From assembly GCA_900552795.1 (NCBI GenBank), contig USBB01000007.1:1753-65752 (forward strand): a stretch of 64,000 bases of DNA, written 5' to 3'. The DNA is from an uncultured Eubacterium sp. Its GTDB lineage: Bacteria > Bacillota > Clostridia > Lachnospirales > Lachnospiraceae. Positions 9,573 through 51,660 of the stretch are shown piece after piece. The position numbers were made by a program, and so were the translations under genes. The first letter of the stretch is position 1; each line of letters begins with the position of its first letter. The notes below the pieces were generated by a model that was not told the origin of the DNA, made no database searches, and worked only from the letters and a program-made list of their open reading frames with translations.

Positions 9573-9577
9573 GTTAT

Positions 9578-13227: not shown

Positions 13228-13417
13228 GGGAGTGAGACAAATAAGTCTCCAGTAGAGACTTTATTCATGAGCCTAAAAATTAAAAGGTGAATCAGTAGTT
13301 TCGCAGAAACTTGATTTCTCAGCAAATCTTAATTTCTTGTTGCTGACCTAAAACGGTCTATCCCCAGATTGTTGAAGTCCAAACTACTGCGTCTTGTAAA
13401 TGATAACTATGTAAACA

Positions 13418-13456
13418 AAGAAGCTGAGCACTTTTTGTCCCAGCTTCTTTTTTAGT
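13418..13456 (+). terminator. Intrinsic terminator
   Basis: AAAGAAGCTG…CAGCTTCTTT followed by TTTTT. Confidence 0.5.
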
Positions 13457-13566
13457 CTCTAAAACATGACAAAAGTCATGTGATGTTATGACATTATGAG
13501 CTAAAAAGCTTGGCTATTTTTTCATAAAATAAATTTATCACAGATGAGAAAATTGGAGATAATGAA

Positions 13567-16261: not shown

Positions 16262-16262
16262 G

Positions 16263-16859: not shown

Positions 16860-17216
16860 GGGGAAATTTTTTTCTAGCTGAAAGCAACTGCTTGGCAATG
16901 TAATATTTGTTAATAAAAACGCATTCTTAAAAAAGTTGACACCGTGTGTACTTTTTGTTTCTGAGATGAGGTGTTAGAAAATTCATCTCAAATTATATAT
17001 GTCTTTTTGACTATCTTTTTATATCCTCTTAAATGTCCGAAAAGCTTTATTTTATAGGATATACGGACATTTTTACTTGAACTGTCATCGGGAGAATGGA
17101 AATATCTCAATCAGGCTGAAAAAGAAGTCTGTCAGTTTTTAAGAACAGAGGAACGTCTAAATACAGAATTGAAGCGCTGACACTATGATAACTTCTTTGA
17201 CAGCGAGAAAGAATGG

Positions 17217-17432
17217 TTGGAATATGAGTTAGAAAAGTTACGAGAATATATTACAGACGATATTAACGAGAAAAGTATTGTAGTGTCCGACCTTTACCCA
17301 ATCAAAGAATTTATCCAACATTTGAAGTTTCAAAAACTGTTAGACTGCTATGATGATTTATACAGTATGGATATGTTTTGGGAAAGCATAGAAGGACATA
17401 AATATAGGACACCTTATCAAGTCGTGAAATGA
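17217..17432 (+). CDS. Hypothetical small protein (possibly a disrupted gene)
   Basis: 71 aa ORF in a region with no convincing coding signal; a downstream alternative frame continues. Confidence 0.2.
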   Translation: MEYELEKLREYITDDINEKSIVVSDLYPIKEFIQHLKFQKLLDCYDDLYSMDMFWESIEGHKYRTPYQVVK

Positions 17433-17740
17433 TGAATCCGAACTCGAAAGAGGATATGGAACTGTTATCGAAATTACCGTGGGTAACGGGTAAATTTGAT
17501 GATAATGACGAGTAACCTTTTTCCTTTTGCATGGAAGATACAGCAAACAAAAAGCCCAGTAAAGAGTGCAAAGCACCACCAATGGTGGCAAGGCTCTTGA
17601 CAGGGCTTTTTCTTTTCTGTGGAGGGTAATCAAGAGGAAGAAAAGATAAAATTTGATTTGTGGTAAATCGGATAATATCAATGAAATTGTCACGGTACAA
17701 GTTTGGGCTATATAAGGAATAGCAACTGGAAGATTGTTGG

Positions 17741-26426: not shown

Positions 26427-26611
26427 TTAAATTAATCCTCATTTCTGTGCAGCCTTCGCACATAATGCAAAAAATTTTGCACTAATATCTACTAATATTT
26501 AAGCAAATACTATATTGCACATACTATTTATATTATACCAAAATCAAAAAAAATACAACAAAAATGTATGTGCTTGTGGTACTATAAAGCAGAATTTAAT
26601 TTTTATTTTAT

Positions 26612-26807
26612 GATTACAGTGTCAAAAGGTCTTGAGCCCACTTGTGCTTGCAGGGTAGTGGGGGCATGACCTTGGGACACGCCCCCTATATGAGCATAAA
26701 AGTGGAGCATAAGCTTCACGATATGCGAATATTGGGAAGGATTGTGAGAGTGCGAAGCACGTAACAATCCGAGTAATCGTAATTAGGGTGTTTTGACACC
26801 CTAATCT
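26612..26807. repeat. Composite MITE-like element bounded by inverted copies of the CAAGACCTTTTGACACTGTAATC repeat
   Basis: Left end GATTACAGTGTCAAAAGGTCTTGAG… (minus orientation, with GC-rich hairpin) and right end …GGTGTTTTGACACCCTAATC (plus). A highly structured ~110 nt core lies between them. Confidence 0.5.
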
Positions 26808-40082: not shown

Positions 40083-40145
40083 AAGGTCATTCCCCCACTA
40101 CCCTGCAGGCACAAGTGAGCTCAAGACCTTTTGACACTGTAATTT
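40083..40145 (+). repeat. Copy B of the dispersed palindromic repeat (core CAAGACCTTTTGACACTGTAAT)
   Basis: AAGGTC-attcccccactaCCCTGCAGGcacaagtgagctca-AGACCTT-TTGACACTGTAAT. It is the reverse complement of the copy at 26612-26680. Confidence 0.6.
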
Positions 40146-40161
40146 TATAAACTAATCTATG

Positions 40162-41724
40162 TTAATCCAATAAATCAAGCTTTTCCAAGACAAATTCCAA
40201 AATATTCTTTTCGTCTACCACTACCTTGGCATTACAAGCCATTCCGTTTATAATGCTTCCTGTTTTTCCATCCTTATTTGTGACAGTTGTCTGGTCGCAT
40301 CTAACCTTTACGAGATAATATGCGCTTCCCGAATTCTGGTTTACTTTAATGTCTTTTGAAATTGATTCAATATTTCCCGTAAAATAACCGTATTCATTTG
40401 ATGGATATGCCGCAATCTCAAACTTTACTTCCTGTCCCTCTTTAAGCTTTGCAATATCCTGATTTTCCACATAAATTTCAGCATAATATCCTTTTGTATT
40501 TTCAGGAAGAATCTGACATACAGCGGTTCCCTGCGCAATATAATTTCCCTCTGTAATCTCCTGCAGCATATAAATATATCCTGACCTCTGTGCCATTACA
40601 GTTGCCTTACCGCTCTCTGAATCATACTGCTTAAGTATATTCTCACATTCTCTTTTTTTATCATTAAAGCTAAGTATCTCTGCCGCCACGCTTTGCTTTT
40701 CAGTAAGAATATTAATATCTCCGCTGCTATTACCGCTTTCATTAATTACCTTTAACTTATCTTTAAGCGCTGACAAACTGTTTTCTGCCGCACTTAAAGT
40801 CTCCTTAACAGTTGTAATCTGCTGTTCTACAACTGATATCTGCTGAAGTTCCAAATTGTCGAGAGTTATCTTTTTCTCGCCTGAAAGTCTGCTTATTACA
40901 TTCTTACAATCCTCAAGCTGCTTTTTAATGCTTTCGACATCTATACTTCCGGAAGTCTGCCCATCATTTATCTTATTATCAAGCGCCTCCTTTTGCTTTT
41001 CATAATCAGCTATCTGAGTATCATACTGCGCGGCAGTCAAATTATATTTCGCTATATAACTGCTTACCAGCGTCTCATAATAGCTTTCAGACGATGAAAA
41101 ACTGTTATTTCTGTTCTTAACACACTGTTCTGCCTGTTCTAATTTGCTTATCTGCTGCTCACAGCTATTTTTCTGACTTTTAATGCTGTTTATCTCATTT
41201 TGTAGCTGCTCTTTTTGCTTATAAATTTCTGTATCAGTATTTTTACCGGCTGACGCAAGCTTCTCTTTTTTTATTTCAAATTCCTTATAATATTTATTAT
41301 CCTCATGCGCATTTAACGCAGCATTTTCACCATTTAAATATCTCTCATACGCCTTTAGTATTTCAATACGGTCCGTTATATCATCATATAAAACTTCCTG
41401 CGCTTTAACCTCATTTTCAATAGAGGAATCAGCGTCTACGGTAAATAAAATATCTCCCTCATTTACATACTGCCCCTCTTCTATATTACACGATGAAATT
41501 TGACCATTTATACCGACACTTACATTAACTGCGCTCTCCTCACTTCTAAATATTCCGCTGCTCTTTACAACAATATCCATCTTTGAAAACCACATCCAGC
41601 CAACTGCTGTAATAAGTAATACTGCCAATATATAAATCAAATACACCATAAAAGGGTTAGGCTTTGATTCGTATACCTCAACACTGTCACTAATATCGGT
41701 CATATCCACTATAATAGGTTTCAC
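40162..41724 (-). CDS. HlyD-family bacteriocin export accessory protein
   Basis: Single N-terminal TM segment, long coiled-coil, and C-terminal beta-barrel region. Directly follows the C39-ABC gene. Confidence 0.8.
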   Translation of the reverse strand: MKPIIVDMTDISDSVEVYESKPNPFMVYLIYILAVLLITAVGWMWFSKMDIVVKSSGIFRSEESAVNVSVGINGQISSCNIEEGQYVNEGDILFTVDADSSIENEVKAQEVLYDDITDRIEILKAYERYLNGENAALNAHEDNKYYKEFEIKKEKLASAGKNTDTEIYKQKEQLQNEINSIKSQKNSCEQQISKLEQAEQCVKNRNNSFSSSESYYETLVSSYIAKYNLTAAQYDTQIADYEKQKEALDNKINDGQTSGSIDVESIKKQLEDCKNVISRLSGEKKITLDNLELQQISVVEQQITTVKETLSAAENSLSALKDKLKVINESGNSSGDINILTEKQSVAAEILSFNDKKRECENILKQYDSESGKATVMAQRSGYIYMLQEITEGNYIAQGTAVCQILPENTKGYYAEIYVENQDIAKLKEGQEVKFEIAAYPSNEYGYFTGNIESISKDIKVNQNSGSAYYLVKVRCDQTTVTNKDGKTGSIINGMACNAKVVVDEKNILEFVLEKLDLLD

Positions 41725-41737
41725 AAATATCCCCCTC

Positions 41738-43936
41738 CTATGTAAAAGATTCTTCTAAAGACTGCTGTCTTACCAGTTCGGCATACTTTCCGCCTGATTC
41801 ACTGAGTTCCCTATGTGTGCCCTGCTCAATAATCTTCCCTTTATCCATAACGAAAATTCTGTCACAGTCTTTAATTGTGCTTAATCTGTGCGCAATAAAA
41901 ATTGTAGTCATTTCCTTAGAAAATTCATTTATTGTTTTATCCAAAGCCCGCTCTGTTATTGAGTCCAGATTACTTGTCGCTTCATCCAATATCAGAATAT
42001 CAGGCTTTTTAAGCATGGCTCTTGCTATCGCAAGTCTCTGGCGCTGTCCGCCTGACAGATTTGCGCCATTTTCTTCAAGCCTTGTCTCATATCTTAATGG
42101 CAGCTCATTTATAAAATCATGTGCCTGCGCCAGCTTGGCTGCCTCCACAACGTTATCCATATCTACATCGTCCATTCCAAGCACTAAATTATCATAAATA
42201 CTTCCGCTGAACAAAAATGTCTCCTGCGGTATATAAGCTATTCTTTCACGCAGACATTCAAGCCTTATATCTTCTATATTATTACCGTTTATTAAAATTT
42301 CCCCTTTTTCAGGAGAATATAAGTGCAGCAGCAATTTTGACAATGTAGTCTTTCCTGAACCGCTCTCGCCTACAAAAGCAACTTTCTCTCCCTTTTTAAT
42401 CGTAAGATTTATGTCAGAAAGCACCTGTCGTCTTGTTCCGTACCTGAAATCAAGATTTCTTATCTGTATATCGCCTGCTAAAGTAAGCGGCGCCATTTTC
42501 CTGCTTTCTTTCTCTGTCTTTTCTGCCTCCAAATCAAGAATTTCACCTAACCTGTCAGCAGCTACAACGGCCGTCTGCATTTGGGGCTGAAGATTAATTA
42601 AATTCTTCACCGGATCAAGAAAATATACCAGCAGCGAATTAAATGTTATTAACGCTCCTATCGTCATTTCTCCGTTAATAACGCTCACGCCGCCTACCCA
42701 AAGTATAATTACGCCGCCCACAAGCTCTACAAAAATCTTAAGCGACGATTGCATATTACTTACCCATGACAATTTAAATATGCTTTTTAACAGCTTAACA
42801 AACTTAATCTCCGTTTCAAGCTTCACTTTTCTTTCTGCATTATATGCTTTTACCATCTGAATTCCGTTTAAGGATTCCACCATATATGACGTAAGCTGTG
42901 AATTGTCTTCCATCTGCTTTCTGTTAAGCTTTTCATACCATTTGTTAAAAGTAAGTACTATAATCACATACAGCACTACTATAATTACGGCAATTACAAA
43001 AAGCTTTACATTCTGAATACACAAAATAACAGCTCCGGCAACTGCCATGATTGTATCAATCATTATAGTTAATGTCGCCCCCGATATGGCATCCCTGACA
43101 TTTCCCGCATCATTAAATCTTGATATTATTTCACCGACACGCCTTGTTCCAAAAAAATTCATTGGCAGTTCTAAAACGTGCCTGTAATACCCAAGAAGTA
43201 AGGCTATATCAAGCTTCTGACTAAGATACAATAGCAAATGCGAACGAATTGCACTTAACACTACCTTAAAGACATTGAGCAATATTACGCCTATAGAAAG
43301 CGTCATCAGCGTTTTTCTTAATCCGTCCGGCAAAACGCTGTCTATTAACTCCTTAAAATAAAATGCACCGAGTATTCCCAAAATGGTATACACAAGTGAT
43401 GCAATAAAAATATGTAACAATAATTTTTTCTGAGGTAAAAGCAGATGAAAAAAGCGTCCGAACAGTCCCTTTGTCTCGTTACCTTTTGTAAATGTCTCAT
43501 TCTTAACAAGCAAAATAAGTATGCCGCTCCACTGATATTTGGGCGGCTTTCCCTCATCATGTACTTCCCCGAAAAACTCTTCCGGCGTAAGCTTCACAAT
43601 TCCCACACCTGGATCTGCTATTATTACCTGCTTTTTTGTAATTTTATGAATTACAACATAATGTAATAAATTTCCGTCCACAATAACATGTGCAATACAC
43701 GGAAGCGGAAATTCCGAAAAAAATGCTTCTTTATTTCCCTTGACGCCTTTTGCACTAAACCCCAATCCTTCTGCAGCCTTTATCACTCCATACGCATTTG
43801 TTCCCTGCTTATCCGTGCCTGCAACTTCGCGTATTTTTGTTATGCCTATCCCGTAACCGTTTTGTTTGCATATCGTTGCCAGACAGGCAGCACCACAATC
43901 CGTGATGTCATGCTGCTTTATGCAATAGTATTTCAT
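41738..43936 (-). CDS. Peptidase-C39-domain ABC transporter (double-glycine leader cleaving bacteriocin exporter, LagD/ComA-type)
   Basis: N-terminal C39 domain with QHDITDCGAACLATI (catalytic Cys), six-TM domain, Walker A GESGSGKTT, LSGGQRQR signature. Confidence 0.85.
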   Translation of the reverse strand: MKYYCIKQHDITDCGAACLATICKQNGYGIGITKIREVAGTDKQGTNAYGVIKAAEGLGFSAKGVKGNKEAFFSEFPLPCIAHVIVDGNLLHYVVIHKITKKQVIIADPGVGIVKLTPEEFFGEVHDEGKPPKYQWSGILILLVKNETFTKGNETKGLFGRFFHLLLPQKKLLLHIFIASLVYTILGILGAFYFKELIDSVLPDGLRKTLMTLSIGVILLNVFKVVLSAIRSHLLLYLSQKLDIALLLGYYRHVLELPMNFFGTRRVGEIISRFNDAGNVRDAISGATLTIMIDTIMAVAGAVILCIQNVKLFVIAVIIVVLYVIIVLTFNKWYEKLNRKQMEDNSQLTSYMVESLNGIQMVKAYNAERKVKLETEIKFVKLLKSIFKLSWVSNMQSSLKIFVELVGGVIILWVGGVSVINGEMTIGALITFNSLLVYFLDPVKNLINLQPQMQTAVVAADRLGEILDLEAEKTEKESRKMAPLTLAGDIQIRNLDFRYGTRRQVLSDINLTIKKGEKVAFVGESGSGKTTLSKLLLHLYSPEKGEILINGNNIEDIRLECLRERIAYIPQETFLFSGSIYDNLVLGMDDVDMDNVVEAAKLAQAHDFINELPLRYETRLEENGANLSGGQRQRLAIARAMLKKPDILILDEATSNLDSITERALDKTINEFSKEMTTIFIAHRLSTIKDCDRIFVMDKGKIIEQGTHRELSESGGKYAELVRQQSLEESFT

Positions 43937-43990
43937 ACTTACTCCCCCCCAAATATCTGTAAAGTCAATCTATTCTGAAACTAAAATAAT

Positions 43991-44932
43991 TTAAAATATA
44001 ATAAAAAATGATACGATAATTCCCAATACACTTATTATAATAAAACCTATTTTTCCAAAGGTCTTTCCGATAATGAACTCCAAAAAAGAAATAATAAATC
44101 TAAAACCATCTAACATAACAATCGGCAATAAATTAAAAAAACAAACTGATAAAGAAAATACACTTAACACAATCATACATTTGTTTAAGCTGTATCTTAT
44201 TCCCGTAGTTACAGATATATTATCAATACCGCCTCCTGACCATGCTAAATCTTCTGCAACACTGGTCTCGCCCGTTAATGTATCCTTAAATACATCTGTC
44301 ATCATGCCTGCCGACTTAAAAAATGAATTAACAGAATCTCTTATTTTACTTCCTATGCTGTTGTCAAATAAAAGTCCTAAATCATCACCTGTATAATAAA
44401 TTTCATATTTTATTCTGTCTCCGTCAGCCTTGCGAACAGTAAAAATATTTTTCTCTTCTTCCTGTAATAAATAATCTATATCATCTTCATGAAAAACTCT
44501 CACCCCATTAATACTGCGTAAAATATCGCCTTTCTGAATACCTGCTTCCGTTAGCGTTCCTGCACTGACATTCTCAATCCTTAGCCCTTCCATATTCGCG
44601 GCAAGCACCGTGAACAAAAATGCCAACACAAAATTCATAATGGGACCGGCTATGACAATAGCCATTTTCTTGAGATTATATTTTCTTACCCCTGTTTTAG
44701 GAATAACATCCCCATTAAATGTATCAAATTCCTTAATACTGCATACCCCTCCTACAGGCAGGAGCCTCATACAATATTTAATTCCATTTCGATTTACGGA
44801 AAATATTTTCGGACCAATACCTGCCTCAAAAGTCTCTACCGTAAAACCTGTCCACCGTGCCACAATGTAATGCCCCAGTTCATGGAACAAAACTATAATA
44901 TATAAGCCAATATAAATTAAAATATACTCCAT
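43991..44932 (-). CDS. RseP-like M50 site-2 protease paralog (HExxH, PDZ, LDG)
   Basis: HELGHYIVARW zinc motif in TM1, central PDZ region, NLLPIVMLDGF motif. First gene of the exporter operon. Confidence 0.75.
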   Translation of the reverse strand: MEYILIYIGLYIIVLFHELGHYIVARWTGFTVETFEAGIGPKIFSVNRNGIKYCMRLLPVGGVCSIKEFDTFNGDVIPKTGVRKYNLKKMAIVIAGPIMNFVLAFLFTVLAANMEGLRIENVSAGTLTEAGIQKGDILRSINGVRVFHEDDIDYLLQEEEKNIFTVRKADGDRIKYEIYYTGDDLGLLFDNSIGSKIRDSVNSFFKSAGMMTDVFKDTLTGETSVAEDLAWSGGGIDNISVTTGIRYSLNKCMIVLSVFSLSVCFFNLLPIVMLDGFRFIISFLEFIIGKTFGKIGFIIISVLGIIVSFFIIF

Positions 44933-45034
44933 ACCACTATTTGTCCGATTTTTTCGTTGTTTTATTATTTGTATAAACGCACACCACCGCTTTACACGAT
45001 GGTATGCGCCACAAGCTTTGCTAATAAATACTGA

Positions 45035-45220
45035 TTATAACAAAGTTATTAAATTAGACATTACTTTTCCAAACAATACACCGACATGATATGAAGATAT
45101 AATTGCAGCACCTGATACAATAATAATAAATGCCATTTTATAGTATAGCTTTTGAAATTCTTTAAAAAATTTTTCTATTTTATCGCTCAAGTTCCGGACA
45201 CCTCTCTTCACTTTAGACAT
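45035..45220 (-). CDS. Hypothetical small membrane protein
   Basis: 61 aa with a basic N-terminus and one TM segment. Confidence 0.3.
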   Translation of the reverse strand: MSKVKRGVRNLSDKIEKFFKEFQKLYYKMAFIIIVSGAAIISSYHVGVLFGKVMSNLITLL

Positions 45221-45338
45221 TACAGTAAACCATAATTGCTTTGTGTTTCTTAAAATAATATTTTATTTAAGAACATCCTTCTAAGGCTCCGCCACAAAAT
45301 GCCAAAATATTTCCTAGTCCAAATTAATGGTTAAAACT

Positions 45339-45521
45339 TCATTTTTCGTATAAAAATGCAAAATATATATTAATTGCAGCAAATACTAACGTAATAATAA
45401 GTGTTTCTATACTTATATTTTTATATGTCATAATCATATATATTTGGTCAACCACGCATAAAATCAATATTATGGAAAAAATTTCATAAACATATTTATT
45501 TACAAATTTTGATAAATCCAT
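45339..45521 (-). CDS. Small two-TM membrane protein (cassette copy 1; diverged paralog of 49797-49979)
   Basis: 60 aa; about 85% identical to the copy-2 ORF. Confidence 0.4.
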   Translation of the reverse strand: MDLSKFVNKYVYEIFSIILILCVVDQIYMIMTYKNISIETLIITLVFAAINIYFAFLYEK

Positions 45522-45605
45522 ATCTTATAGCATCATCCTCTTATTTGATAACAAGCACCTGAGACAAACTTATATCAGATACTTGTTGAAAGATAAACTA
45601 CCACG

Positions 45606-45977
45606 TCAATTAAATTTATTACTATTTTTAACAATTACATTAATAAAAAATACAATTATAATATAAAAAATATACTGTAGTATAAATATGTAACTCCACT
45701 CAAAAATACATATTTCAAAAAAATTCATATAAATTACAGATACAATATTCCATAATAAAAACCATACCAATGTAAATATCTGTACACAATTATCATAAAT
45801 AAAATATCTATTTTTGTATTTTTTATTGCTAACTATAATTAACATAAATGATATAGCCAAGTTTGTTAACGCATAATAATGCTTTGTTATAATGCTATTA
45901 TACAAACATATTATACATAACAATGCTTTCAATATATTATTTATTTTCTTCATTCTATTATAGCTCTTGTTAACCAA
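45606..45977 (-). CDS. Putative bacteriocin immunity protein (four-TM membrane protein)
   Basis: 123 aa, highly hydrophobic, immediately downstream of the structural peptides. Its 5' end overlaps the beta-peptide stop by 28 nt; the real start may be the internal MKKINN. Confidence 0.5.
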   Translation of the reverse strand: MVNKSYNRMKKINNILKALLCIICLYNSIITKHYYALTNLAISFMLIIVSNKKYKNRYFIYDNCVQIFTLVWFLLWNIVSVIYMNFFEICIFEWSYIFILQYIFYIIIVFFINVIVKNSNKFN

Positions 45978-46144
45978 TACGATGCTTCATATACTCCTGA
46001 TACAACAGCAACCGGTGGGCATACAACTGCTCCAATTACGCCTATTGCTGCTACACAATAAGTAAAATTTTCCCAATTCCAACCACCATTGATTTCAAAC
46101 AATTCTTCTATAGACAGAACGTTTAATAAATTCTCTTTTACCAT
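45950..46144 (-). CDS. Class IIb bacteriocin precursor, peptide beta (double-glycine leader)
   Basis: Leader MVKENLLNVLSIEELFEINGG, then the 43 aa core WNWENFTYCVAAIGVIGAVVCPPVAVVSGVYEASYWLTRAIIE with AxxxG/GxxxA motifs. Confidence 0.75.
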   Translation of the reverse strand: MVKENLLNVLSIEELFEINGGWNWENFTYCVAAIGVIGAVVCPPVAVVSGVYEASYWLTRAIIE

Positions 46145-46156
46145 TTGTTCCTCCTG

Positions 46157-46375
46157 TTAAGAATTACACGCAGCATAGATTCCAACACCTACTGCTACAA
46201 CACAAGCACCAATACAAACACCTGCGCCAACAGGTCCTAATCCCAAAGCACTACCCGCAACAGATAATCCTTTAACTATACCTGAGCCAACAGTTGCGAA
46301 AAAACCGCCACCATCAATTTCTTTCAGCTCATTCTGCGTCATCTCACAAAATCCATCACTTAACGTCATTTCCAT
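46157..46375 (-). CDS. Class IIb bacteriocin precursor, peptide alpha (double-glycine leader)
   Basis: Leader …MTQNELKEIDGG, then a Gly-rich 49 aa core GFFATVGSGIVKGLSVAGSALGLGPVGAGVCIGACVVAVGVGIYAACNS (multiple GxxxG). RBS AAGGAGA. Confidence 0.75.
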   Translation of the reverse strand: MEMTLSDGFCEMTQNELKEIDGGGFFATVGSGIVKGLSVAGSALGLGPVGAGVCIGACVVAVGVGIYAACNS

Positions 46376-46469
46376 TTGTTTTAATCTCCTTTTTCTATAA
46401 ATTTCTTTACACTTATATGAAAAAGCTATATAATTTACCCGGGCGCTTTTTCTTAAGTGCTTACTTTGT

Positions 46470-46536
46470 GGGTTTTGGTACTTTCTTTAAATTTCACCAA
46501 AACCCTTTTTATATAAATCAGCATTGAATATATCAA
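46470..46536 (-). promoter_or_regulatory. Bacteriocin operon promoter (-35 TTGATA / 17 nt / -10 TATAAA) with an overlapping operator-like palindrome GGGTTTTGGT-N16-ACCAAAACCC
   Basis: Minus strand: TTGATA (46531-46536 rc), TATAAA (46508-46513 rc). A 10 bp inverted repeat at 46470-46505 overlaps the predicted transcription start site. Confidence 0.45.
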
Positions 46537-46550
46537 TACTGAATTATATC

Positions 46551-47009
46551 CTATAATATATTAGGATTTATTCCAACATATATGTTACTTAAAGTATTTT
46601 CTATATTATGTATGTCTACGGATTGCGTCACATTGTATCCTACCGTAATCGGCTGCAGTTTATTTCTTTCTATGTACTTATTTAATTCATTACACGCATC
46701 CTGCAACCCTACCGGATTTCCCTTATATGACATCATAACTGCATTTACAATTTTCAGTTCTTTCTTGAACTTATATTCACCTATACTTTCAATTTCATTA
46801 CTTACAGGTATAAGAATTTCCATATCAATAAATTCACCATCAATCCCATATGTTGCCATTATCGGATATGCTATTCTTTTTGCGCCTCTCCCGTTTATTT
46901 TCAACTCCATATCTCTGCCTATACTTTCTAATTTGCTTTGAAGTATCTTACCTCTGTATGATAATAGGTTATTTAATTTTAATTCCTGATTTTCTTTAAT
47001 TTCTATCAT
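46551..47009 (-). CDS. Stand-alone GyrI-like (SbmC/AraC effector-binding fold) protein
   Basis: 152 aa with the pattern typical of the GyrI-like small-molecule-binding domain. No DNA-binding domain. Present only in cassette copy 1. Confidence 0.45.
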   Translation of the reverse strand: MIEIKENQELKLNNLLSYRGKILQSKLESIGRDMELKINGRGAKRIAYPIMATYGIDGEFIDMEILIPVSNEIESIGEYKFKKELKIVNAVMMSYKGNPVGLQDACNELNKYIERNKLQPITVGYNVTQSVDIHNIENTLSNIYVGINPNIL

Positions 47010-47064
47010 ATTCTCACCCCTTTAAAATACAAATCACTCAAACAACAATTGATATTGTAATTAC

Positions 47065-47238
47065 CTATTCTTTTTCTTTCTTATCCAAAAATATCAATCC
47101 ACCTATCACTATCGCTTCAATAATACATTTAATACTAATTTCTGATGTTCTAAAAAATATGTAAAACAATTCTATTATAGTAAGTCCAAGCACTACATAT
47201 GCAGCAATGTCTATAACCCTACGCAATTTATTTTTCAT
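47065..47238 (-). CDS. Small two-TM membrane protein (57 aa from MKNKLRRV)
   Basis: Start chosen at the internal Met immediately after an AAAGGGGG RBS. The ORF-track start at 47271 lies inside a terminator hairpin. Confidence 0.4.
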   Translation of the reverse strand: MKNKLRRVIDIAAYVVLGLTIIELFYIFFRTSEISIKCIIEAIVIGGLIFLDKKEKE

Positions 47239-47255
47239 TTTTACCCCCTTTAAAA

Positions 47256-47397
47256 CACAAAAAGGCCGCAATGAAATTCATTGCGACCGAACTATCATAG
47301 CATACCTTTTATATGCCTTAGACTCCAAGCTTTGCGTCCTTACATTTCTATAAGTTTGCCCCTCACATAAATAGACTTTTTATTTTCCACCTGTCAA
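47256..47397 (-). ncRNA. Candidate small RNA / cis-acting leader with its own promoter and intrinsic terminator (duplicated at 51285-51460)
   Basis: Minus strand: TTGACA (47392-47397 rc), 18 nt spacer, TATTTA, then about 105 nt with no ORF. Ends in hairpin GGTCGCAATGAA-t-TTCATTGCGGCC followed by TTTTT (47256-47288), directly before the RBS of the 57 aa gene. Confidence 0.35.
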
Positions 47398-47563
47398 TCT
47401 ATTTACCATTTAATTTCCTCTCTGATAAAAGATATCACTCTATATAAATTTCGTCAACTGCTTTTTTGCATAAAAATACTAAAACCGTTAAAAAATACAA
47501 AAAATATATAAAATTTTCTATAATATTGCATAAACACTAAATATATCAGTTAAAAGTTGTATT

Positions 47564-47752
47564 TTATTCTTTTGTCACTACAAAAATAACACTAAAAATG
47601 CTTCTTGTATAATATACAAACACCCCGGTCAATATAGCACCTATAATACTTCCAACAACCACTCCTATTGCCTCTGTGTACTTCATAAAATTTCTCACTT
47701 TCACTGAATAAAAAATGAACAGTATTATAAATCTATCTTTTACACAGTACAA
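47564..47752 (-). CDS. Small membrane protein (40-62 aa)
   Basis: Hydrophobic, with GxxxG-like IGVVVGSIIGAILTG. Likely start at the internal MKYTE. Confidence 0.35.
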   Translation of the reverse strand: MYCVKDRFIILFIFYSVKVRNFMKYTEAIGVVVGSIIGAILTGVFVYYTRSIFSVIFVVTKE

Positions 47753-47756
47753 TAAT

Positions 47757-47936
47757 TCATTCTCTTTTTTTATGTAAGAAGAAGATATTTACCACATCTA
47801 TAATCGCTAATACAACCACTAAACTTTGAACTATTACAAACATATTCCCAGCAACACCATTGATTGCCATGCAGAATAACACTACTCCTATAATAATTAG
47901 AAGAGCACCTGCAATAATTGTAACTTTTTTATTCAT
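47757..47936 (-). CDS. Small two-TM membrane protein, 59 aa (below the ORF-track cutoff)
   Basis: Hand translation: MNKKVTIIAGALLIIIGVVLFCMAINGVAGNMFVIVQSLVVVLAIIDVVNIFFLHKKREN. Confidence 0.35.
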   Translation of the reverse strand: MNKKVTIIAGALLIIIGVVLFCMAINGVAGNMFVIVQSLVVVLAIIDVVNIFFLHKKRE

Positions 47937-47976
47937 ATTCTTCCTAATCCTTATAGATTATTATTCAGGCATACGT

Positions 47977-48090
47977 TTAAAATTTTAGCAATAAATATGC
48001 TCCTAAAATCAATCCTAATGCAAAACCTGTTTTAACCAATGTTGGCAACAATTCCTTTAATGTATGTCCACAAATCATAAAATCTTTCAT
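47977..48090 (-). CDS. Candidate 37 aa hydrophobic peptide (below the ORF-track cutoff)
   Basis: Hand translation: MKDFMICGHTLKELLPTLVKTGFALGLILGAYLLLKF. No double-glycine leader. Confidence 0.25.
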   Translation of the reverse strand: MKDFMICGHTLKELLPTLVKTGFALGLILGAYLLLKF

Positions 48091-48246
48091 TTTTTCACTC
48101 CTATTAGATTCTAATACAATATTGTTAACTGCTCTTCATCATGCGGTGACTTTATCGCCAATCCACTTTCTTTCATTTTTACCGTAAATTACTAATTTTC
48201 TTTTTAAAAAACATAATATCCACAATTCTATTTTTAAACCAACAAC

Positions 48247-48408
48247 TTAATCACCGGTTTCACTTTTAAAAAACTGTGAATACATCGTTATTGCTAATAA
48301 AAGCATGGCAATATCTCTAATAGCGTCCATATATAATGAACTTATAAAACATATTACTAAATCAATTACAATGCAAATAACACATAATAAGAATACTATT
48401 TTTTTCAT
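48247..48408 (-). CDS. Small two-TM membrane protein, 53 aa (below the ORF-track cutoff)
   Basis: Hand translation: MKKIVFLLCVICIVIDLVICFISSLYMDAIRDIAMLLLAITMYSQFFKSETGD. Confidence 0.3.
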   Translation of the reverse strand: MKKIVFLLCVICIVIDLVICFISSLYMDAIRDIAMLLLAITMYSQFFKSETGD

Positions 48409-48477
48409 ATCATAAATCCATCGCCATTAATACTTTCAAGTTCATTTTGCTTTTAACATCTTTCTTCACTCTACATA

Positions 48478-49152
48478 CTACAACAATGTACCAACAGTAT
48501 TATTAACCACATGTATAATAATCACCATGGCAATGCTGTCTGTTTTTTTGTATATAACTCCAAGAAGCATTCCTAATAAAGAATAATAACTTAATTCTAA
48601 AAGCGAAAAACCACTATGCATCACTCCAAAAGAAACAGCCACTAATATTACTGCCAAATACCCATTTAAAAAAGGAATTTTTGATATAAGCCAATTTTGA
48701 TATATATATCTAAACAAAATTTCCTCGACCACCGGACCTATTACACACACCACAATAACGCTCAATAGCTGCAATAATATTCCGCTATCATTAATTGAAT
48801 CTATTATCATCTCATTTTCTGTTAACATTTTACCATTTATGTAATATAAAACATTTGTAAAAATCAAATTAATTAATAAATATAATACAGAAAATGCAAA
48901 TGTTTGAAAAAACCATGCTTTTTTACTATCCCTATCCGCTATATCTTTGTAAATAGTCTTCCCATATAGCTTTACCGCCACAATCCCCAAAACAGCATAT
49001 ATTAAACAACTGACGATATGTGTAAGCTCGTCTGTACTTATTTTCTTTCCCAGCGCAAATGTTATTGCAATCACTAATAGTCCGACAAATATGGGACCTA
49101 ATGTATACATTACAATCAAAGTACTTACCATTTTTTTATTACGTGAATTCAA
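48478..49152 (-). CDS. CPBP-family (CAAX protease / Abi) intramembrane metalloprotease; bacteriocin self-immunity-type protein
   Basis: 224 aa, six to seven TM segments, with motifs EEILFRY, FGVMH and HVVNN characteristic of the CPBP/Abi family. Confidence 0.7.
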   Translation of the reverse strand: MNSRNKKMVSTLIVMYTLGPIFVGLLVIAITFALGKKISTDELTHIVSCLIYAVLGIVAVKLYGKTIYKDIADRDSKKAWFFQTFAFSVLYLLINLIFTNVLYYINGKMLTENEMIIDSINDSGILLQLLSVIVVCVIGPVVEEILFRYIYQNWLISKIPFLNGYLAVILVAVSFGVMHSGFSLLELSYYSLLGMLLGVIYKKTDSIAMVIIIHVVNNTVGTLL

Positions 49153-49192
49153 TTTAAATCTCCTGTCTTAAAATCTGTTTTATTATTTTGTA

Positions 49193-49375
49193 TTATTTAT
49201 TTTCCTCTGATGAAAACAAATATACCACCCCTATACTCCCAAAACCAATGCCGAATAATATATCTTTTATAGCAAAATTAATCTCATCATTATAAAACAT
49301 CAGTACTGCATCACAAAACATTAAAAAACACAATATAATAAAAATGATAAACAAAATCCTGTACTTTCTCTTCAT
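49193..49375 (-). CDS. Small two-TM membrane protein
   Basis: 60 aa hydrophobic ORF. Confidence 0.3.
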   Translation of the reverse strand: MKRKYRILFIIFIILCFLMFCDAVLMFYNDEINFAIKDILFGIGFGSIGVVYLFSSEENK

Positions 49376-49440
49376 TACAAATCACATCCCTTAAAAAATC
49401 AGAACAACAAATAATGTCCGAAATCAACATACAAACAATG

Positions 49441-49800
49441 CTATATATTTCTAACAGCAGTCCTGCCTAACTCAAAGAAAACAGGACATATAATAATCAA
49501 ATTATTAACAAATGTTACCGCAAAATAGTACAAATCCGCTTTTCTTTGTTTATCATCCGTCAGCAAATGTATTCCTGCAAATAATAATATAATCGATAAA
49601 ATAATATGATATTTACTAAAGCTGATAAATTCGATGCCTTTTAATAATATTTGGAGAATAGCTGTAATAGACGATAGCACTATCGTTATTTTCATATAAT
49701 CACATATTTTCTTATCACTATCCACACAAATTTTCACACTACATTCCTCTTTCTTATTTCTCATACAATATGCACTATTTTCGAATGCGCATGATTTCAC
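49441..49800 (-). CDS. Hypothetical membrane protein
   Basis: 119 aa ORF; likely true start at MKITIVL (~84 aa, three TM segments). Confidence 0.35.
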   Translation of the reverse strand: MKSCAFENSAYCMRNKKEECSVKICVDSDKKICDYMKITIVLSSITAILQILLKGIEFISFSKYHIILSIILLFAGIHLLTDDKQRKADLYYFAVTFVNNLIIICPVFFELGRTAVRNI

Positions 49801-49979
49801 TTTTTATGTAAAAATCCAAAATATATATTAATTGCAGCAAACACTAATGTTATAATAAGCGTTTCTATACTTATATTTTTATATCTCAACATCATATATA
49901 TTTGGTCAACCACGCATAAAATCAATATTACGGAAAAAATTTCATAAACATATTTATTTACAAATTTTGATAAATTCAT
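49797..49979 (-). CDS. Small two-TM membrane protein (cassette copy 2)
   Basis: Paralog of 45339-45521. Confidence 0.4.
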   Translation of the reverse strand: MNLSKFVNKYVYEIFSVILILCVVDQIYMMLRYKNISIETLIITLVFAAINIYFGFLHKK

Positions 49980-50064
49980 ATTTTATAACACCATCCCCTT
50001 ATTTTGATAACAAGCATCTGATACAAACTTATATCAGATACTTGCTGAAAGATAAACTACCACG

Positions 50065-50436
50065 TCAATTAAATTTATTACTATTTTTAACAATTACATT
50101 AATAAAAAATACAATTATAATATAAAAAATATACTGTAGTATAAATATGTAACTCCACTCAAAAATACATATTTCAAAAAAATTCATATAAATTACAGAT
50201 ACAATATTCCATAATAAAAACCATACCAATGTAAATATCTGTACACAATTATCATAAATAAAATATCTATTTTTGTATTTTTTATTGCTAACTATAATTA
50301 ACATAAATGATATAGCCAAGTTTGTTAACGCATAATAATGCTTTGTTATAATGCTATTATACAAACATATTATACATAACAATGCTTTCAATATATTATT
50401 TATTTTCTTCATTCTATTATAGCTCTTGTTAACCAA
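50065..50436 (-). CDS. Putative bacteriocin immunity protein (copy 2, identical)
   Basis: Identical 123 aa translation. Confidence 0.5.
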   Translation of the reverse strand: MVNKSYNRMKKINNILKALLCIICLYNSIITKHYYALTNLAISFMLIIVSNKKYKNRYFIYDNCVQIFTLVWFLLWNIVSVIYMNFFEICIFEWSYIFILQYIFYIIIVFFINVIVKNSNKFN

Positions 50437-50603
50437 TACGATGCTTCATATACTCCTGATACAACAGCAACCGGTGGGCATACAACTGCTCCAATTACGC
50501 CTATTGCTGCTACACAATAAGTAAAATTTTCCCAATTCCAACCACCATTGATTTCAAACAATTCTTCTATAGACAGAACGTTTAATAAATTCTCTTTTAC
50601 CAT
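50409..50603 (-). CDS. Class IIb bacteriocin precursor, peptide beta (copy 2)
   Basis: Identical 64 aa translation. Confidence 0.75.
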   Translation of the reverse strand: MVKENLLNVLSIEELFEINGGWNWENFTYCVAAIGVIGAVVCPPVAVVSGVYEASYWLTRAIIE

Positions 50604-50615
50604 TTGTTCCTCCTG

Positions 50616-50834
50616 TTAAGAATTACACGCAGCATAGATTCCAACACCTACTGCTACAACACAAGCACCAATACAAACACCTGCGCCAACAGGTCCTAAT
50701 CCCAAAGCACTACCCGCAACAGATAATCCTTTAACTATACCTGAGCCAACAGTTGCGAAAAAACCGCCACCATCAATTTCTTTCAGCTCATTCTGCGTCA
50801 TCTCACAAAATCCATCACTTAACGTCATTTCCAT
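50616..50834 (-). CDS. Class IIb bacteriocin precursor, peptide alpha (copy 2)
   Basis: Identical 72 aa translation. Confidence 0.75.
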   Translation of the reverse strand: MEMTLSDGFCEMTQNELKEIDGGGFFATVGSGIVKGLSVAGSALGLGPVGAGVCIGACVVAVGVGIYAACNS

Positions 50835-50928
50835 TTGTTTTAATCTCCTTTTTCTATAAATTTCTTTACACTTATATGAAAAAGCTATATAATTTACCCG
50901 GGCGCTTTTTCTTAAGTGCTTACTTTGT

Positions 50929-50995
50929 GGGTTTTGGTACTTTCTTTAAATTTCACCAAAACCCTTTTTATATAAATCAGCATTGAATATATCAA
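50929..50995 (-). promoter_or_regulatory. Copy 2 of the bacteriocin promoter plus palindromic operator
   Basis: Same sequence as 46470-46536, with two substitutions near the -35. Confidence 0.4.
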
Positions 50996-51511
50996 CACCG
51001 AATTATATCCCACCGTAATCGGCTGTAATTTATTTATACATAATTCTTCTTCATTTTTCTGCTCTTATCTTCTTACCCAAAACTAACATCTTATCACTTT
51101 TAAATCAATACCCATGTGCTATTCGGTAGCTAAATCGTGCTATTTGGTATATTTTTATTTCTTATACAATAATATAAATACATAAAGCATAGTAACACTT
51201 ATAATAATATTTTATGTCATATGCAGCAACGTCTATAACCCTACGCAATTTATTTTTCATTTTTACCCCTTTAAAATACAAAAAGGCCGCAATGAAACTC
51301 ATTGCGACCGAACTATCATAACATATCTTTTATATGCCTTAGACTCCAAGTTTTGCGTCCTTATATTTCTATAAGTTTGCCCCTCACATAAACAGACTGT
51401 CTTATTTATCTCCCACCTGTCAATCTATTTACCATTTATATTCCTCTCTTTTAAAAAGAATACGACATTATATTCACTTTGTCAACTCTTTTTCACTTTA
51501 AATCACTAAAA

Positions 51512-51566
51512 TCGTCAAAGACTGTGCAATCACAAATATGCCAAGACCTTTTGACACTGCAATCCT
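51512..51566 (+). repeat. Copy C of the dispersed repeat (CCAAGACCTTTTGACACTGCAATC)
   Basis: Core match plus partial upstream arm GTCAAAGACTGTGCAATC. Confidence 0.45.
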
Positions 51567-51572
51567 GTTATA

Positions 51573-51613
51573 CAAAAAACGCAGCGGACAGACAAAACTC
51601 TGCCACACTGCGT
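51573..51613 (-). terminator. Intrinsic terminator of glyA
   Basis: Minus strand ACGCAG…CTGCGT followed by TTTTTT. Confidence 0.45.
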
Positions 51614-51660
51614 AAGTATTAAAAATTATTTATCATTAATTATGTATCACTCATTATGTA

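What the first reader, a model, noticed from the sequence alone, without database searches (positions are those of the whole stretch)
45345..51005. Near-perfect 1.2 kb tandem duplication of the bacteriocin cassette with a decayed second flank
Seen in sequence: 45600-46545 and 50059-51004 are identical by eye, with identical alpha, beta and immunity ORFs, promoter and palindrome. The outer ~250 bp (60 aa gene) is about 85-90% identical. A second block (47190-47425 versus 51215-51460) is also duplicated. Copy 2 has lost about 0.45 kb containing the GyrI-like gene, and its 57 aa gene is frameshifted. The differing identity of the core versus the flanks suggests ongoing gene conversion/homogenisation of the core, or a very recent re-duplication.
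Basis: seen in the sequence. Interest (0 to 1): 0.65.

Follow-up and report, generated by a model that had tools for sequence, protein, structure and literature searches.

The report
Duplicated bacteriocin cassette, core possibly overwritten
A gut Lachnospira carries two copies of a two-peptide bacteriocin operon; the second is normally a dead relic, and here its 950-bp core exactly matches the working copy, through recent gene conversion or an assembler error.

Summary
The repeat is real in the sequence. Window 45587-46536 and 50046-50995 are identical over 950 bp. The flanks are 91% (60-aa gene) and 86.5% (upstream block) identical. The copies are direct repeats 4459 bp apart, separated by 2.3 kb of small membrane-protein genes, so they are not strictly tandem.

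The ancestral unit was about 2.15 kb. It ran: promoter, c-di-GMP-I riboswitch with terminator, 57-aa gene, GyrI-like 152-aa gene, conserved stem-loop box, alpha, beta, immunity gene, 60-aa gene.

In at least 14 other assemblies of this Lachnospira locus, including four long-read contigs, copy 2 is decayed. The promoter box is deleted, alpha is frameshifted, beta is deleted, and an orphan immunity gene survives. Two of these assemblies match the window exactly outside the core. So the window's copy 2 is the relic overwritten by copy 1, with a tract of 805-950 bp.

It is unsettled whether this happened in a cell or in the assembler. The overwritten state appears only in metaSPAdes scaffolds from one pipeline. 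The tract ends lie in the only shared runs of at least 55 nt. The window is also chimeric elsewhere, with Streptococcus DNA at 1-17669. My split is real about 0.5, artefact about 0.4.

The parts
45587..46536 (-). Copy 1 core (donor): conserved stem-loop/promoter box, alpha, beta, and the immunity gene, through to 19 nt beyond its stop codon
   Evidence: It is 100% identical to 50046-50995. The surrounding copy-1 block 45338-46551 is 100% identical in five other contigs: L001, L002, L003, L005 and L006.
50046..50995 (-). Copy 2 core (recipient): 950 bp identical to copy 1. The minimal overwritten tract is 50139-50943.
   Evidence: Site-by-site map against near-isogenic L002. All copy-2-specific features inside the tract are replaced: 35 substitutions, a 92-nt and a 273-nt deletion, and two 1-nt deletions. 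The copy-2 variants at 50996, 50999 and from 50045 downward are retained.
46157..46375 (-). Alpha prepeptide, 72 aa, leader ending ...KEIDGG (second copy at 50616-50834)
   Evidence: TIGR01847 double-glycine leader 16.7 bits against a cut-off of 15.7. Weak Bacteriocin_IIc match. Only two related clusters in 5.8 billion proteins.
45950..46144 (-). Beta prepeptide, 64 aa, leader ending ...FEINGG (second copy at 50409-50603)
   Evidence: Weak Bacteriocin_IIc match, E 2.4e-4. TIGR01847 scores 14.0, below its cut-off. It lies 12 nt downstream of alpha.
45606..45953 (-). Putative immunity protein, 115 aa, about four hydrophobic segments (second copy at 50065-50412)
   Evidence: Its ATG overlaps the beta stop codon (ATGA). 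No family hit. Gene callers record a 115-aa product. The role is inferred from position.
45339..45521 (-). 60-aa small membrane protein in the copy-1 flank. Its paralog in copy 2 is at 49797-49979.
   Evidence: The paralogs differ by 14 nt and 8 aa, with dN/dS about 0.28. This is the old divergence outside the tract.
46551..47009 (-). 152-aa stand-alone protein with a GyrI-like fold (copy 1 only)
   Evidence: AlphaFold2 pLDDT 92.4. Foldseek matches CTR107, STM3175, EcmrR-C, CtaZ, BmrR-C and SbmC. Homologs sit upstream of double-glycine peptides in many Lachnospiraceae loci.
46470..46505 (.). It is the first of two conserved stem-loops between the 152-aa gene and alpha.
   Evidence: Related loci have the stem GGACTCTGAT/ATCAGAGTCC at the same place, with compensatory changes at 4 pairs. 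The 92-nt deletion in decayed copy 2 removes its right arm and the downstream box.
47065..47238 (-). 57-aa small membrane protein (copy 1). In copy 2 it is truncated after codon 14 (51162-51260).
47279..47370 (-). c-di-GMP-I riboswitch aptamer, copy 1, followed by the terminator hairpin at 47264-47288
   Evidence: RF01051 scores 68.4 bits against a gathering score of 35. Terminator scan.
51300..51391 (-). c-di-GMP-I riboswitch aptamer, copy 2, followed by the terminator hairpin at 51285-51309
   Evidence: RF01051 scores 66.4 bits. Terminator scan. It lies inside the 86.5% block 51218-51519.
51011..51217 (-). 207-bp decayed filler in copy 2. It replaces 644 bp of copy 1, namely the 152-aa gene and most of the 57-aa gene.
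   Evidence: The best local match to the 152-aa gene is 24 nt, and its score lies within the range of shuffled controls (38; shuffled maximum 39). The global alignment score is about 3 sd above shuffles.
47493..49795 (-). Spacer between the copies: seven small membrane-protein ORFs and a 224-aa CPBP/Rce1-like protease (48478-49152)
40162..44932 (-). Export and processing genes: HlyD-type accessory protein (40162-41724), C39-peptidase ABC exporter (41738-43936), M50/PDZ RseP-like protease (43991-44932)
   Evidence: TIGR01193 scores 710 bits against a cut-off of 524. Pfam finds Peptidase_C39, ABC_membrane, ABC_tran, HlyD_3 and Peptidase_M50.

Best explanation
Shown: the window holds a chromosomal bacteriocin island of a human-gut Lachnospira, lying between glyA and argG. 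An operon of about 2.15 kb was duplicated long ago as a direct repeat. The operon runs: promoter, c-di-GMP-I riboswitch with terminator, 57-aa membrane protein, GyrI-like 152-aa protein, conserved stem-loop box, alpha and beta prepeptides with double-glycine leaders, a 115-aa membrane protein taken to be the immunity protein, and a 60-aa protein.

Shown: in the species at large, the glyA-proximal copy (copy 2) has decayed. It keeps the riboswitch and an intact, diverged orphan immunity gene. It has lost the 152-aa gene, the promoter box and beta, and its alpha is frameshifted.

Inferred: in the window's lineage, non-reciprocal homologous recombination (gene conversion, or two crossovers between sister chromosomes) used copy 1 as template. 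Exchange points lay in the two longest runs of identity, 55 nt upstream and 93 nt downstream. It overwrote 805-950 bp of the relic. This would restore a second complete promoter-alpha-beta-immunity cassette and erase the orphan immunity variant.

Inferred consequences: two expressed cassettes instead of one, and loss of the variant immunity allele.
For: - Identity pattern: 0 differences in 950 bp, against 8.8% and 13.5% in the flanks.
- Copy-2 flanks in the window carry every copy-2-specific variant seen in other strains, while the interior equals copy 1.
- Donor unchanged: the copy-1 block 45338-46551 is 100% identical in five other contigs (L001, L002, L003, L005, L006).
- Unconverted orthologs in near-identical backgrounds. 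L112 and L007 show 0 mismatches over 13,060 and 4,527 bp outside the tract. L002 (a 2.2-Mb long-read contig) shows 16 mismatches over window 50442-44901, all inside the tract.
- The decayed state is shared by strains 1-6% diverged in the flanks, so it is ancestral.
- The overwritten state occurs on two haplotype backgrounds from two samples, L004/L013 and L016.
- Other SPAdes-type assemblies (contigs named NODE_) join copy 2's upstream flank to the decayed core correctly.
- From memory of SPAdes settings: the decayed and full paths differ by about 370 nt, which exceeds its bulge-collapse tolerances.
Against: - No long-read assembly or non-metaSPAdes assembly shows the overwritten state. In a census of 21 contigs that carry the copy-2 60-aa protein, only scaffold_157 has it, and that scaffold is 100% identical to the window over 20.3 kb.
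- Both contigs with the overwritten state, and a third contig with the reciprocal odd junction (L102), come from the same metaSPAdes pipeline, mOTUs-db.
- The tract ends fall exactly in the only identical runs of at least 55 nt. From memory, 55 is the largest default metaSPAdes k-mer.
- The window contig is chimeric with Streptococcus DNA at 17262-17669.
- Mosaic alleles that looked like further conversions (L150, L017) have breakpoints in shared runs and can be explained by paralog collapse during assembly.
Confidence: 0.5

Rival explanations
1. Assembly artefact. The source genome has the ordinary decayed copy 2. The metaSPAdes graph has a branch point at each of the two shared runs: 55 nt, which is exactly one k-mer at k=55, and 93 nt. 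The decayed path was dropped, for example in a multi-strain sample, or it was filtered out as a scaffold under 1 kb. The scaffolder then ran the copy-1 path twice through the resulting loop.
For: - The overwritten state appears only in metaSPAdes scaffolds of the mOTUs-db pipeline.
- A third scaffold from that pipeline, L102, is circular-like and joins copy 1's upstream flank to the decayed core. That is the reciprocal mis-pairing at the same 55-nt run.
- Strains identical outside the core are decayed in MEGAHIT, long-read and, by inference, NCBI MAG assemblies.
- The window is demonstrably chimeric elsewhere.
- L150, a SPAdes-type contig (named NODE_), shows a copy-2-type stretch in copy 1 bounded by 56- and 85-nt shared runs. 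MEGAHIT contigs carrying the same copy-2 type (L001, L003) lack it.
Against: - I know of no SPAdes step that would discard a 433-nt path at equal coverage, and the length difference exceeds bulge limits (from memory).
- Four other SPAdes-type assemblies (contigs named NODE_) resolve the branch correctly.
- It would have to happen in two samples.
- Assemblers usually collapse repeats rather than create a perfect second copy.
- The pipeline association may be inflated, because the look-up tool hides contigs with ordinary gene order.
Confidence: 0.4
2. Copy 2 was never decayed in this lineage. A fully functional second cassette is an old polymorphism kept identical to copy 1 by continuous concerted evolution. 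The decayed allele of near-identical strains was imported by recombination between strains.
For: - The island between glyA and the M50 gene is hypervariable, with at least five alternative gene contents among strains sharing the same glyA and MCP proteins. Allele exchange between strains therefore happens.
- All four combinations of upstream haplotype and copy-2 state are seen.
Against: - The decayed allele is the majority state across diverged strains.
- Importing only the decayed core, with breakpoints inside the 55- and 93-nt runs and no other change in over 17 kb, is less parsimonious than an exchange within one genome.
- A recent conversion is still needed to explain 0 differences in 950 bp.
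Confidence: 0.05
3. Very recent re-duplication: a fresh copy of the 1.2-kb cassette was inserted next to glyA.
For: The core is identical.
Against: - The flanks on both sides of copy 2 are the old copy-2 sequence, found at the same place in every strain.
- There are no new junctions, target duplications or mobile-element genes.
- The period and the spacer are unchanged.
Confidence: 0.03

Closest known systems
Class IIb (two-peptide) bacteriocin loci of Firmicutes, such as lactococcin G and plantaricin EF/JK (from general knowledge)
   Same: Two adjacent small genes with double-glycine leaders. GxxxG-like motifs in the mature parts. A small multi-pass membrane protein immediately downstream. 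A C39-peptidase ABC exporter plus accessory protein. A CPBP/Abi-type protease nearby.
   Different: The mature peptides match no curated family. The lactococcin G/enterocin 1071 and lactobin A/cerein 7B models score below their cut-offs and match only the leader. No histidine kinase, response regulator or inducer-peptide genes were found in the island (40162-51519). Instead there is a c-di-GMP-I riboswitch and a GyrI-like protein upstream. Two-peptide synergy is untested.
Streptococcus pneumoniae blp bacteriocin-immunity region (from general knowledge)
   Same: A hypervariable island next to a conserved exporter. It holds mosaic sets of bacteriocin and immunity genes, orphan immunity genes, and pseudogenised peptide genes that differ between strains.
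   Different: A different phylum-level lineage, different peptides and different regulation. Here the specific event is one paralog overwritten by the other within a genome.
Multicopy identical bacteriocin structural genes in gut Clostridia, such as rumA1-A3 of ruminococcin A and the nsoA copies of nisin O (from memory, not checked here)
   Same: Several identical or nearly identical structural-gene copies in one locus of a gut Lachnospiraceae-type organism.
   Different: Those are lantibiotics with tightly clustered copies. Here the whole promoter-peptide-immunity cassette is repeated 4.5 kb away, and the second copy is a relic in most strains.
Orphan toxin-immunity modules of CDI, Rhs and T6SS loci (PMC5361080 for T6SS immunity arrays; re-arming of orphans by recombination is from memory)
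   Same: Displaced or decayed toxin modules leave orphan immunity genes downstream. Homologous recombination between the active and orphan modules can change what is expressed.
   Different: Those systems swap toxin tips into a large delivery protein. Here a silent small-peptide cassette would be restored in full, and the direction is active copy into relic.
c-di-GMP-I (GEMM-I) riboswitch regulons of Clostridia, such as flagellar and adhesin genes in Clostridioides difficile (from general knowledge)
   Same: A canonical RF01051 aptamer with a terminator-type expression platform in a 5' leader.
   Different: The downstream genes are a small membrane protein, a GyrI-like protein and a bacteriocin cassette. 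A full-text search found no paper that links this riboswitch with bacteriocin loci.

Membership tests
Class IIb two-peptide bacteriocin | Two adjacent genes for small peptides with double-glycine leaders | tested here: met
   Alpha ends its leader with ...EIDGG and beta with ...EINGG, and the genes are 12 nt apart. TIGR01847 passes for alpha (16.7 against 15.7) but not for beta (14.0).
Class IIb two-peptide bacteriocin | Dedicated ABC exporter with an N-terminal C39 peptidase, plus an accessory protein | tested here: met
   TIGR01193 scores 710 bits against a cut-off of 524. Peptidase_C39 E 1.4e-33. HlyD_3 and TIGR01000 match the neighbouring gene, with TIGR01000 below its cut-off.
Class IIb two-peptide bacteriocin | Cognate immunity gene co-transcribed downstream | tested here: inconclusive
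   A 115-aa hydrophobic protein overlaps the beta stop codon (ATGA). It has no family hit. The role is inferred from position only.
Class IIb two-peptide bacteriocin | Antimicrobial activity that needs both peptides | not testable with these tools
   Needs synthesis or expression of the peptides and activity assays.
Lactococcin G/enterocin 1071 and lactobin A/cerein 7B families | Score at or above the curated NCBIfam cut-off | tested here: not met
   NF038035 scores 20.3 against 37. TIGR03949 scores 17.8 against 21.5. The matches cover the leader region only.
c-di-GMP-I riboswitch (RF01051) | Covariance-model score above the Rfam gathering score over the full aptamer | tested here: met
   68.4 and 66.4 bits against 35, covering model positions 1-87 of 87. 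The same element precedes homologs of the 152-aa gene in L024, L026, L055 and L067.
GyrI-like small-molecule-binding domain | Match to the sequence profile (Pfam GyrI-like) | tested here: not met
   No Pfam or NCBIfam hit, even at E = 10 for Pfam. No PDB sequence hit of relevance.
GyrI-like small-molecule-binding domain | Duplicated beta-alpha-beta-beta fold | tested here: met
   AlphaFold2 model with pLDDT 92.4. Foldseek gives E from 4e-9 to 6e-4 and TM 0.54-0.76 (most 0.67-0.76; SbmC lowest) to CTR107, STM3175, EcmrR-C, CtaZ, BmrR-C and SbmC.
Interlocus gene conversion | An identical tract inside diverged paralogous flanks, with the donor unchanged | tested here: met
Interlocus gene conversion | Unconverted allele at the orthologous site in close relatives | tested here: met
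   L112/L007 and L002, with 0 mismatches outside the tract.
Interlocus gene conversion | Converted structure confirmed by reads that span the tract, or by an independent assembly method | tested here: not met
   Seen only in mOTUs-db metaSPAdes scaffolds. Four long-read contigs and all MEGAHIT contigs that reach the site are decayed.

The most novel reading that the evidence does not exclude
Copy 2 is not just a relic. It is a riboswitch-headed silent cassette that populations repeatedly re-arm from copy 1 and disarm again by exchange between the two repeats. This would toggle a lineage between "one producer cassette plus a variant orphan immunity" and "two producer cassettes". The odd junctions seen in three samples (L004, L016, L102) would then be real products of this exchange.
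Probability: 0.12. Interest if true: 0.65.

Novelty: new member of a known kind. Interest (0 to 1): 0.35.

Why it matters
If the overwritten copy is real, this is a clean natural case of a dead bacteriocin cassette restored by gene conversion. The unconverted allele is preserved in strains that are otherwise identical. That would let one measure what a second cassette, and the loss of an orphan immunity variant, do to competition in the gut.

If it is an artefact, it is a concrete warning. metaSPAdes scaffolds can show a perfect duplication where the genome has a diverged paralog.

Whichever is true, the work gives a corrected anatomy. This is an uncharacterised two-peptide bacteriocin operon headed by a c-di-GMP-I riboswitch and a GyrI-like protein. 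That arrangement is conserved across Lachnospiraceae loci, and I found no description of it in the searchable literature.

Tried and rejected
- Contig-end positions (L007, L103, L112, L016, L009, L152) as evidence for or against a second identical core in other samples. The ends fit neither simple model consistently and depend on unknown effective k-mer sizes. I drew no conclusion.
- Mosaic immunity alleles (P0158, P0159, P0160, P0165; L017, L018, L150) as independent proof of ongoing conversion. Six of eight block combinations exist. However, breakpoints coincide with shared runs, and the long-read contigs I aligned in detail (L002, L005) show no mosaic. I do not count them.
- L008 and L009 as converted copy-2 contigs. 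They are copy-1 contigs.
- One scan of JGI metagenome contigs with a copy-2-specific 32-mer gave a single hit, in the decayed state.
- The genome-contig scan with the ABC exporter found no identical genome, only relatives at 87% identity or less. The genus came from the source names of exact protein matches instead.
- A sigma-70 promoter for alpha on the coding strand was not found by the consensus scan. The best match (11 of 12) is on the opposite strand.
- A profile search of the 152-aa family against PDB sequences gave nothing relevant.
- The first structure-prediction call failed and was repeated.

Full report
**1. Observation**

Self-BLASTN of the window finds two collinear direct repeats:
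- 45338-46551 versus 49796-51010, at 98.0% over 1215 columns;
- 47196-47492 versus 51218-51519, at 86.5%.

A base-by-base alignment shows that 45587-46536 and 50046-50995 are identical over 950 bp.
- On the high-coordinate side, the first differences are at 46537 and 46540 (50996 and 50999 in copy 2).
- On the low-coordinate side, the first is at 45586 (50045). After it, the flank holding the 60-aa gene has 22 differences in 250 nt.
- At that divergence, 950 clean bases have a probability of about 1e-38.
- Copy 1's 644 bp (46552-47195) is represented in copy 2 by 207 bp. Only about 24-34 nt of this, encoding NKLQPITV of the 152-aa protein, is still recognisable.
- The 57-aa gene of copy 2 loses homology after codon 14. 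It is truncated, not frameshifted.
- The copies are 4459 bp apart, with 2.3 kb of unique sequence between them. They are direct repeats rather than a head-to-tail tandem.

**2. Anatomy (all genes on the minus strand)**

Downstream of the copies lie three export and processing genes:
- an M50/PDZ RseP-like protease (43991-44932);
- a C39-peptidase ABC exporter (41738-43936), which scores 710 bits on TIGR01193 against a cut-off of 524;
- a HlyD-type accessory protein (40162-41724).

Each core encodes the following:
- a 72-aa and a 64-aa prepeptide with double-glycine leaders; alpha passes TIGR01847;
- a 115-aa hydrophobic protein whose ATG overlaps the beta stop codon, which I take to be the immunity protein from its position.

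Alpha has only two related clusters among 5.8 billion proteins. The curated class IIb families score below their cut-offs.

The spacer holds seven small membrane-protein ORFs and a CPBP/Rce1-like protease.

The 152-aa protein upstream of alpha has no Pfam or NCBIfam hit. An AlphaFold2 model (pLDDT 92.4) matches stand-alone and regulator-linked GyrI-like domains at TM 0.7-0.76. The matches are CTR107, the albicidin-resistance protein STM3175, EcmrR-C, the closthioamide-resistance protein CtaZ, BmrR-C and SbmC.

- RF01051 scores 68.4 bits at 47370-47279 and 66.4 bits at 51391-51300, against a gathering score of 35.
- Each aptamer is followed by a strong terminator hairpin, at 47288-47264 and 51309-51285. 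The hairpin's 5' arm overlaps the 3' end of the aptamer.
- Each is preceded by a TTGACA/TTGACG-type promoter match.

The ancestral duplicated unit was therefore a whole transcription unit of about 2.15 kb. It ran: promoter, riboswitch with terminator, 57-aa gene, 152-aa gene, stem-loop box, alpha, beta, immunity gene, 60-aa gene.

**3. Organism**

- The exact glyA protein and close variants of the Mur-ligase protein carry the NCBI source name "Lachnospira sp.".
- The ABC exporter's best matches among species-representative genomes are Lachnospiraceae and Lachnospira, at 82-87%.
- The locus occurs in many human-gut metagenome assemblies.

**4. What related strains show**

Exact-protein look-ups brought in more than 40 contigs covering the locus. 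Copy 1 is the same everywhere: the block 45338-46551 is 100% identical in five other contigs.

Copy 2, at the same place next to glyA, is a decayed relic in the contigs below:
- L001, L002, L003, L005, L015, L017, L098, L099, L101, L110, L111, L112, L147 and L150;
- further contigs with the same gene order that the tool did not show.

L002, L005, L110 and L147 are long-read, polished contigs.

Against near-isogenic L002, the relic differs from copy 1 as follows:
- a 92-nt deletion removes one arm of the palindrome and the conserved box upstream of alpha;
- a 1-nt deletion frameshifts alpha;
- a 273-nt deletion fuses the 5' part of alpha to the last 30 nt of beta;
- 35 substitutions;
- an intact 115-aa orphan immunity gene with 8 amino-acid changes and dN/dS about 0.23-0.33.

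The window's copy 2 carries every copy-2-specific base outside 50046-50995 and none inside. The overwritten tract is at least 805 bp (50139-50943) and at most 950 bp. Copy 1 is the donor.

Two backgrounds provide the unconverted counterpart:
- L112 and L007 (one MEGAHIT assembly) are identical to the window over 13,060 and 4,527 bp outside the tract.
- L002 differs from the window at 16 sites between 50442 and 44901, all inside the tract.

This rules out in-place decay and a fresh duplication. It is what a recent gene conversion would leave.

**5. Why I do not call it settled**

- *Restricted to one pipeline.* The overwritten state is seen only in the window, in L004/L013 and in L016. L004/L013 (scaffold_157 of sample SAMEA2338736) is identical to the window over 20.3 kb. 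L016 (sample SAMN28062193) ends inside the core. Both scaffolds come from the mOTUs-db workflow, which uses metaSPAdes scaffolds.
- *Census.* Among the 21 contigs that carry the copy-2 60-aa protein, scaffold_157 is the only one with a copy-1-type core.
- *L016's background.* L016 is 100% identical upstream to L011 and L015, which are decayed.
- *A reciprocal junction.* A third scaffold from the same pipeline, L102, is a circular-like 4,063-bp contig. It joins copy 1's upstream flank to the decayed core. That is the reciprocal pairing at the same point.
- *Tract ends.* The ends lie in the two longest runs shared by copy 1 and the relic: 55 nt (50995-50941) and 93 nt (50138-50046). From memory, 55 is the largest default metaSPAdes k-mer, so both runs are branch points in its graph.
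- *Chimera elsewhere.* Positions 12170-17669 are 99-99.8% identical to Streptococcus gallolyticus-group chromosomes, and the AsnA protein at 215-1207 is identical to theirs. Lachnospira contigs follow the window only down to 17262. A shared stretch of about 400 bp joins the two.
- *A likely collapse in another SPAdes-type contig (named NODE_).* L150 shows a copy-2-type stretch in copy 1, bounded by 56- and 85-nt shared runs. This looks like paralog collapse. For that reason I do not count the mosaic immunity alleles as proof of ongoing conversion.

Against an artefact:
- Four other SPAdes-type assemblies (contigs named NODE_) pair the branch correctly.
- The decayed path (about 433 nt) and the full path (about 802 nt) differ by far more than the bulge tolerances I recall.
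- Two samples and two haplotype backgrounds are involved.
- The look-up tool hides ordinary contigs, which inflates the apparent link with one pipeline.

I put real conversion, possibly in only part of the population, at about 0.5. I put the artefact at about 0.4. The remaining alternatives take about 0.1.

**6. Mechanism if real (inferred)**

- RecA-type exchange occurs between the direct repeats on one chromosome or between sister chromosomes. Exchange points lie in the 55- and 93-nt runs, and about 365 nt missing from the relic is copied across.
- Two reciprocal crossovers, through a triplication intermediate, would give the same product.
- The outcome is a second promoter-alpha-beta-immunity cassette. 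The orphan immunity variant is lost.
- The copy-2 riboswitch is retained either way.

**7. Comparison with known systems, and novelty**

- The cassette works like a class IIb bacteriocin locus, but the peptides belong to no curated family.
- The strain-variable island with orphan immunity genes resembles the pneumococcal blp region, and the orphan toxin-immunity arrays of contact-dependent systems.
- Duplication with homogenisation is an ordinary process. I therefore rate the finding itself as a new member of a known kind, with moderate interest that depends on read-level confirmation.

**8. The more unusual feature lies outside the finding**

- A c-di-GMP-I riboswitch sits 50-85 nt upstream of homologs of the 152-aa gene in L024, L026, L055 and L067.
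- The intergenic region between that gene and the double-glycine peptide is conserved across eight loci. It has two stem-loops with compensatory changes.
- A full-text search found no paper that links this riboswitch with bacteriocin loci.

Noticed in passing
window 47279-47370 (-) and 51300-51391 (-); L067 1935-2025, 4087-4177, 8834-8924; L026 5953-6037; L055 7432-7515; L024 8099-8203: c-di-GMP-I riboswitches (66-78 bits against a gathering score of 35) head the bacteriocin-associated operon in the window. In related Lachnospiraceae loci they sit 50-85 nt upstream of homologs of the GyrI-like 152-aa gene. The terminator's 5' arm overlaps the 3' end of the aptamer, which suggests an ON switch. 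No paper linking this riboswitch to bacteriocin loci was found.
   Followed up: partly
window 46551-47009 (-); homologs in L021, L022, L024, L026, L032, L043, L055, L067, L095 and others: A uniform 152-aa family with no Pfam or NCBIfam model (288 hits). It has a confident GyrI-like fold and is typically found about 180 nt upstream of a double-glycine-leader peptide next to C39-ABC exporters. Known stand-alone GyrI-like proteins bind or sequester antibiotics, so it could be an immunity or sensing component.
   Followed up: partly
window 46376-46550 (copy 2: 50835-51009); alignment A2: The region between the 152-aa gene and the peptide is conserved in eight loci. It has two stem-loops with compensatory changes and invariant AGCACT / AAAAG / TATAT / CTTTT / GTGTAAA blocks. 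On the opposite (+) strand, an 11-of-12 sigma-70 match (46406-46434) is followed by the first hairpin and a T-run. This could be a 70-90-nt divergent small RNA, or the whole region could be an inverted-repeat operator. There is no Rfam hit.
   Followed up: partly
window 1-17669: The left part of the window is Streptococcus gallolyticus-group chromosome. It is 99-99.8% identical at nucleotide level over 12170-17669, and the AsnA and histidine-kinase proteins are exact matches to complete Streptococcus genomes. Lachnospira contigs match the window only from 17262 rightwards. The window is therefore a chimeric contig joined through about 400 shared bases (17262-17669).
   Followed up: yes
window 43937-51660; compare L109/L141/L142, L143/L144, L146, L110, L101: The stretch between glyA and the M50/ABC genes is a hypervariable island. 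Strains with identical glyA and MCP proteins carry at least five different sets of small peptide, immunity-like, CPBP and M48/M56 protease genes.
   Followed up: partly
L102 (CHOI22-1 scaffold_1121, 4063 bp): A circular-like scaffold that starts at window-equivalent 48136 and ends at 48131. It joins copy 1's upstream flank (57-aa and 152-aa genes) to the decayed copy-2 core and on into the spacer. It is either the reciprocal product of a crossover in the 55-nt shared run (an excised circle or a tandem amplification) or a mis-pairing in the assembly graph.
   Followed up: partly
proteins P0153-P0165; L150 6001-6348, L018, L017: The immunity protein exists as a copy-1 type (17 contigs), relic types (49, 22 and 11 contigs) and four mosaic types that combine blocks of both. 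The orphan immunity gene is more widespread than the peptides. The mosaics may reflect real exchange or assembly collapse.
   Followed up: partly
window 26611-26779 (+); 40083-40155: A Clostridiales-1 RNA (RF01699, 128 bits). A 73-column inverted match at 90% identity to its 5' part lies just downstream of the HlyD-type gene, at the edge of the bacteriocin island.
   Followed up: no
window 43991-44932 (-): An RseP-like M50/PDZ membrane protease is encoded between the peptide cassettes and the exporter, and it is conserved in all variants of the island. From memory, RseP is a known receptor for some leaderless and LsbB-type bacteriocins, so a locus-encoded paralog could be linked to immunity or processing.
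   Followed up: no
window 1570-1929 vs 2433-2790: A 72%-identical direct repeat inside two neighbouring ORFs of the Streptococcus-derived part of the window. These are probably paralogous genes.
   Followed up: no
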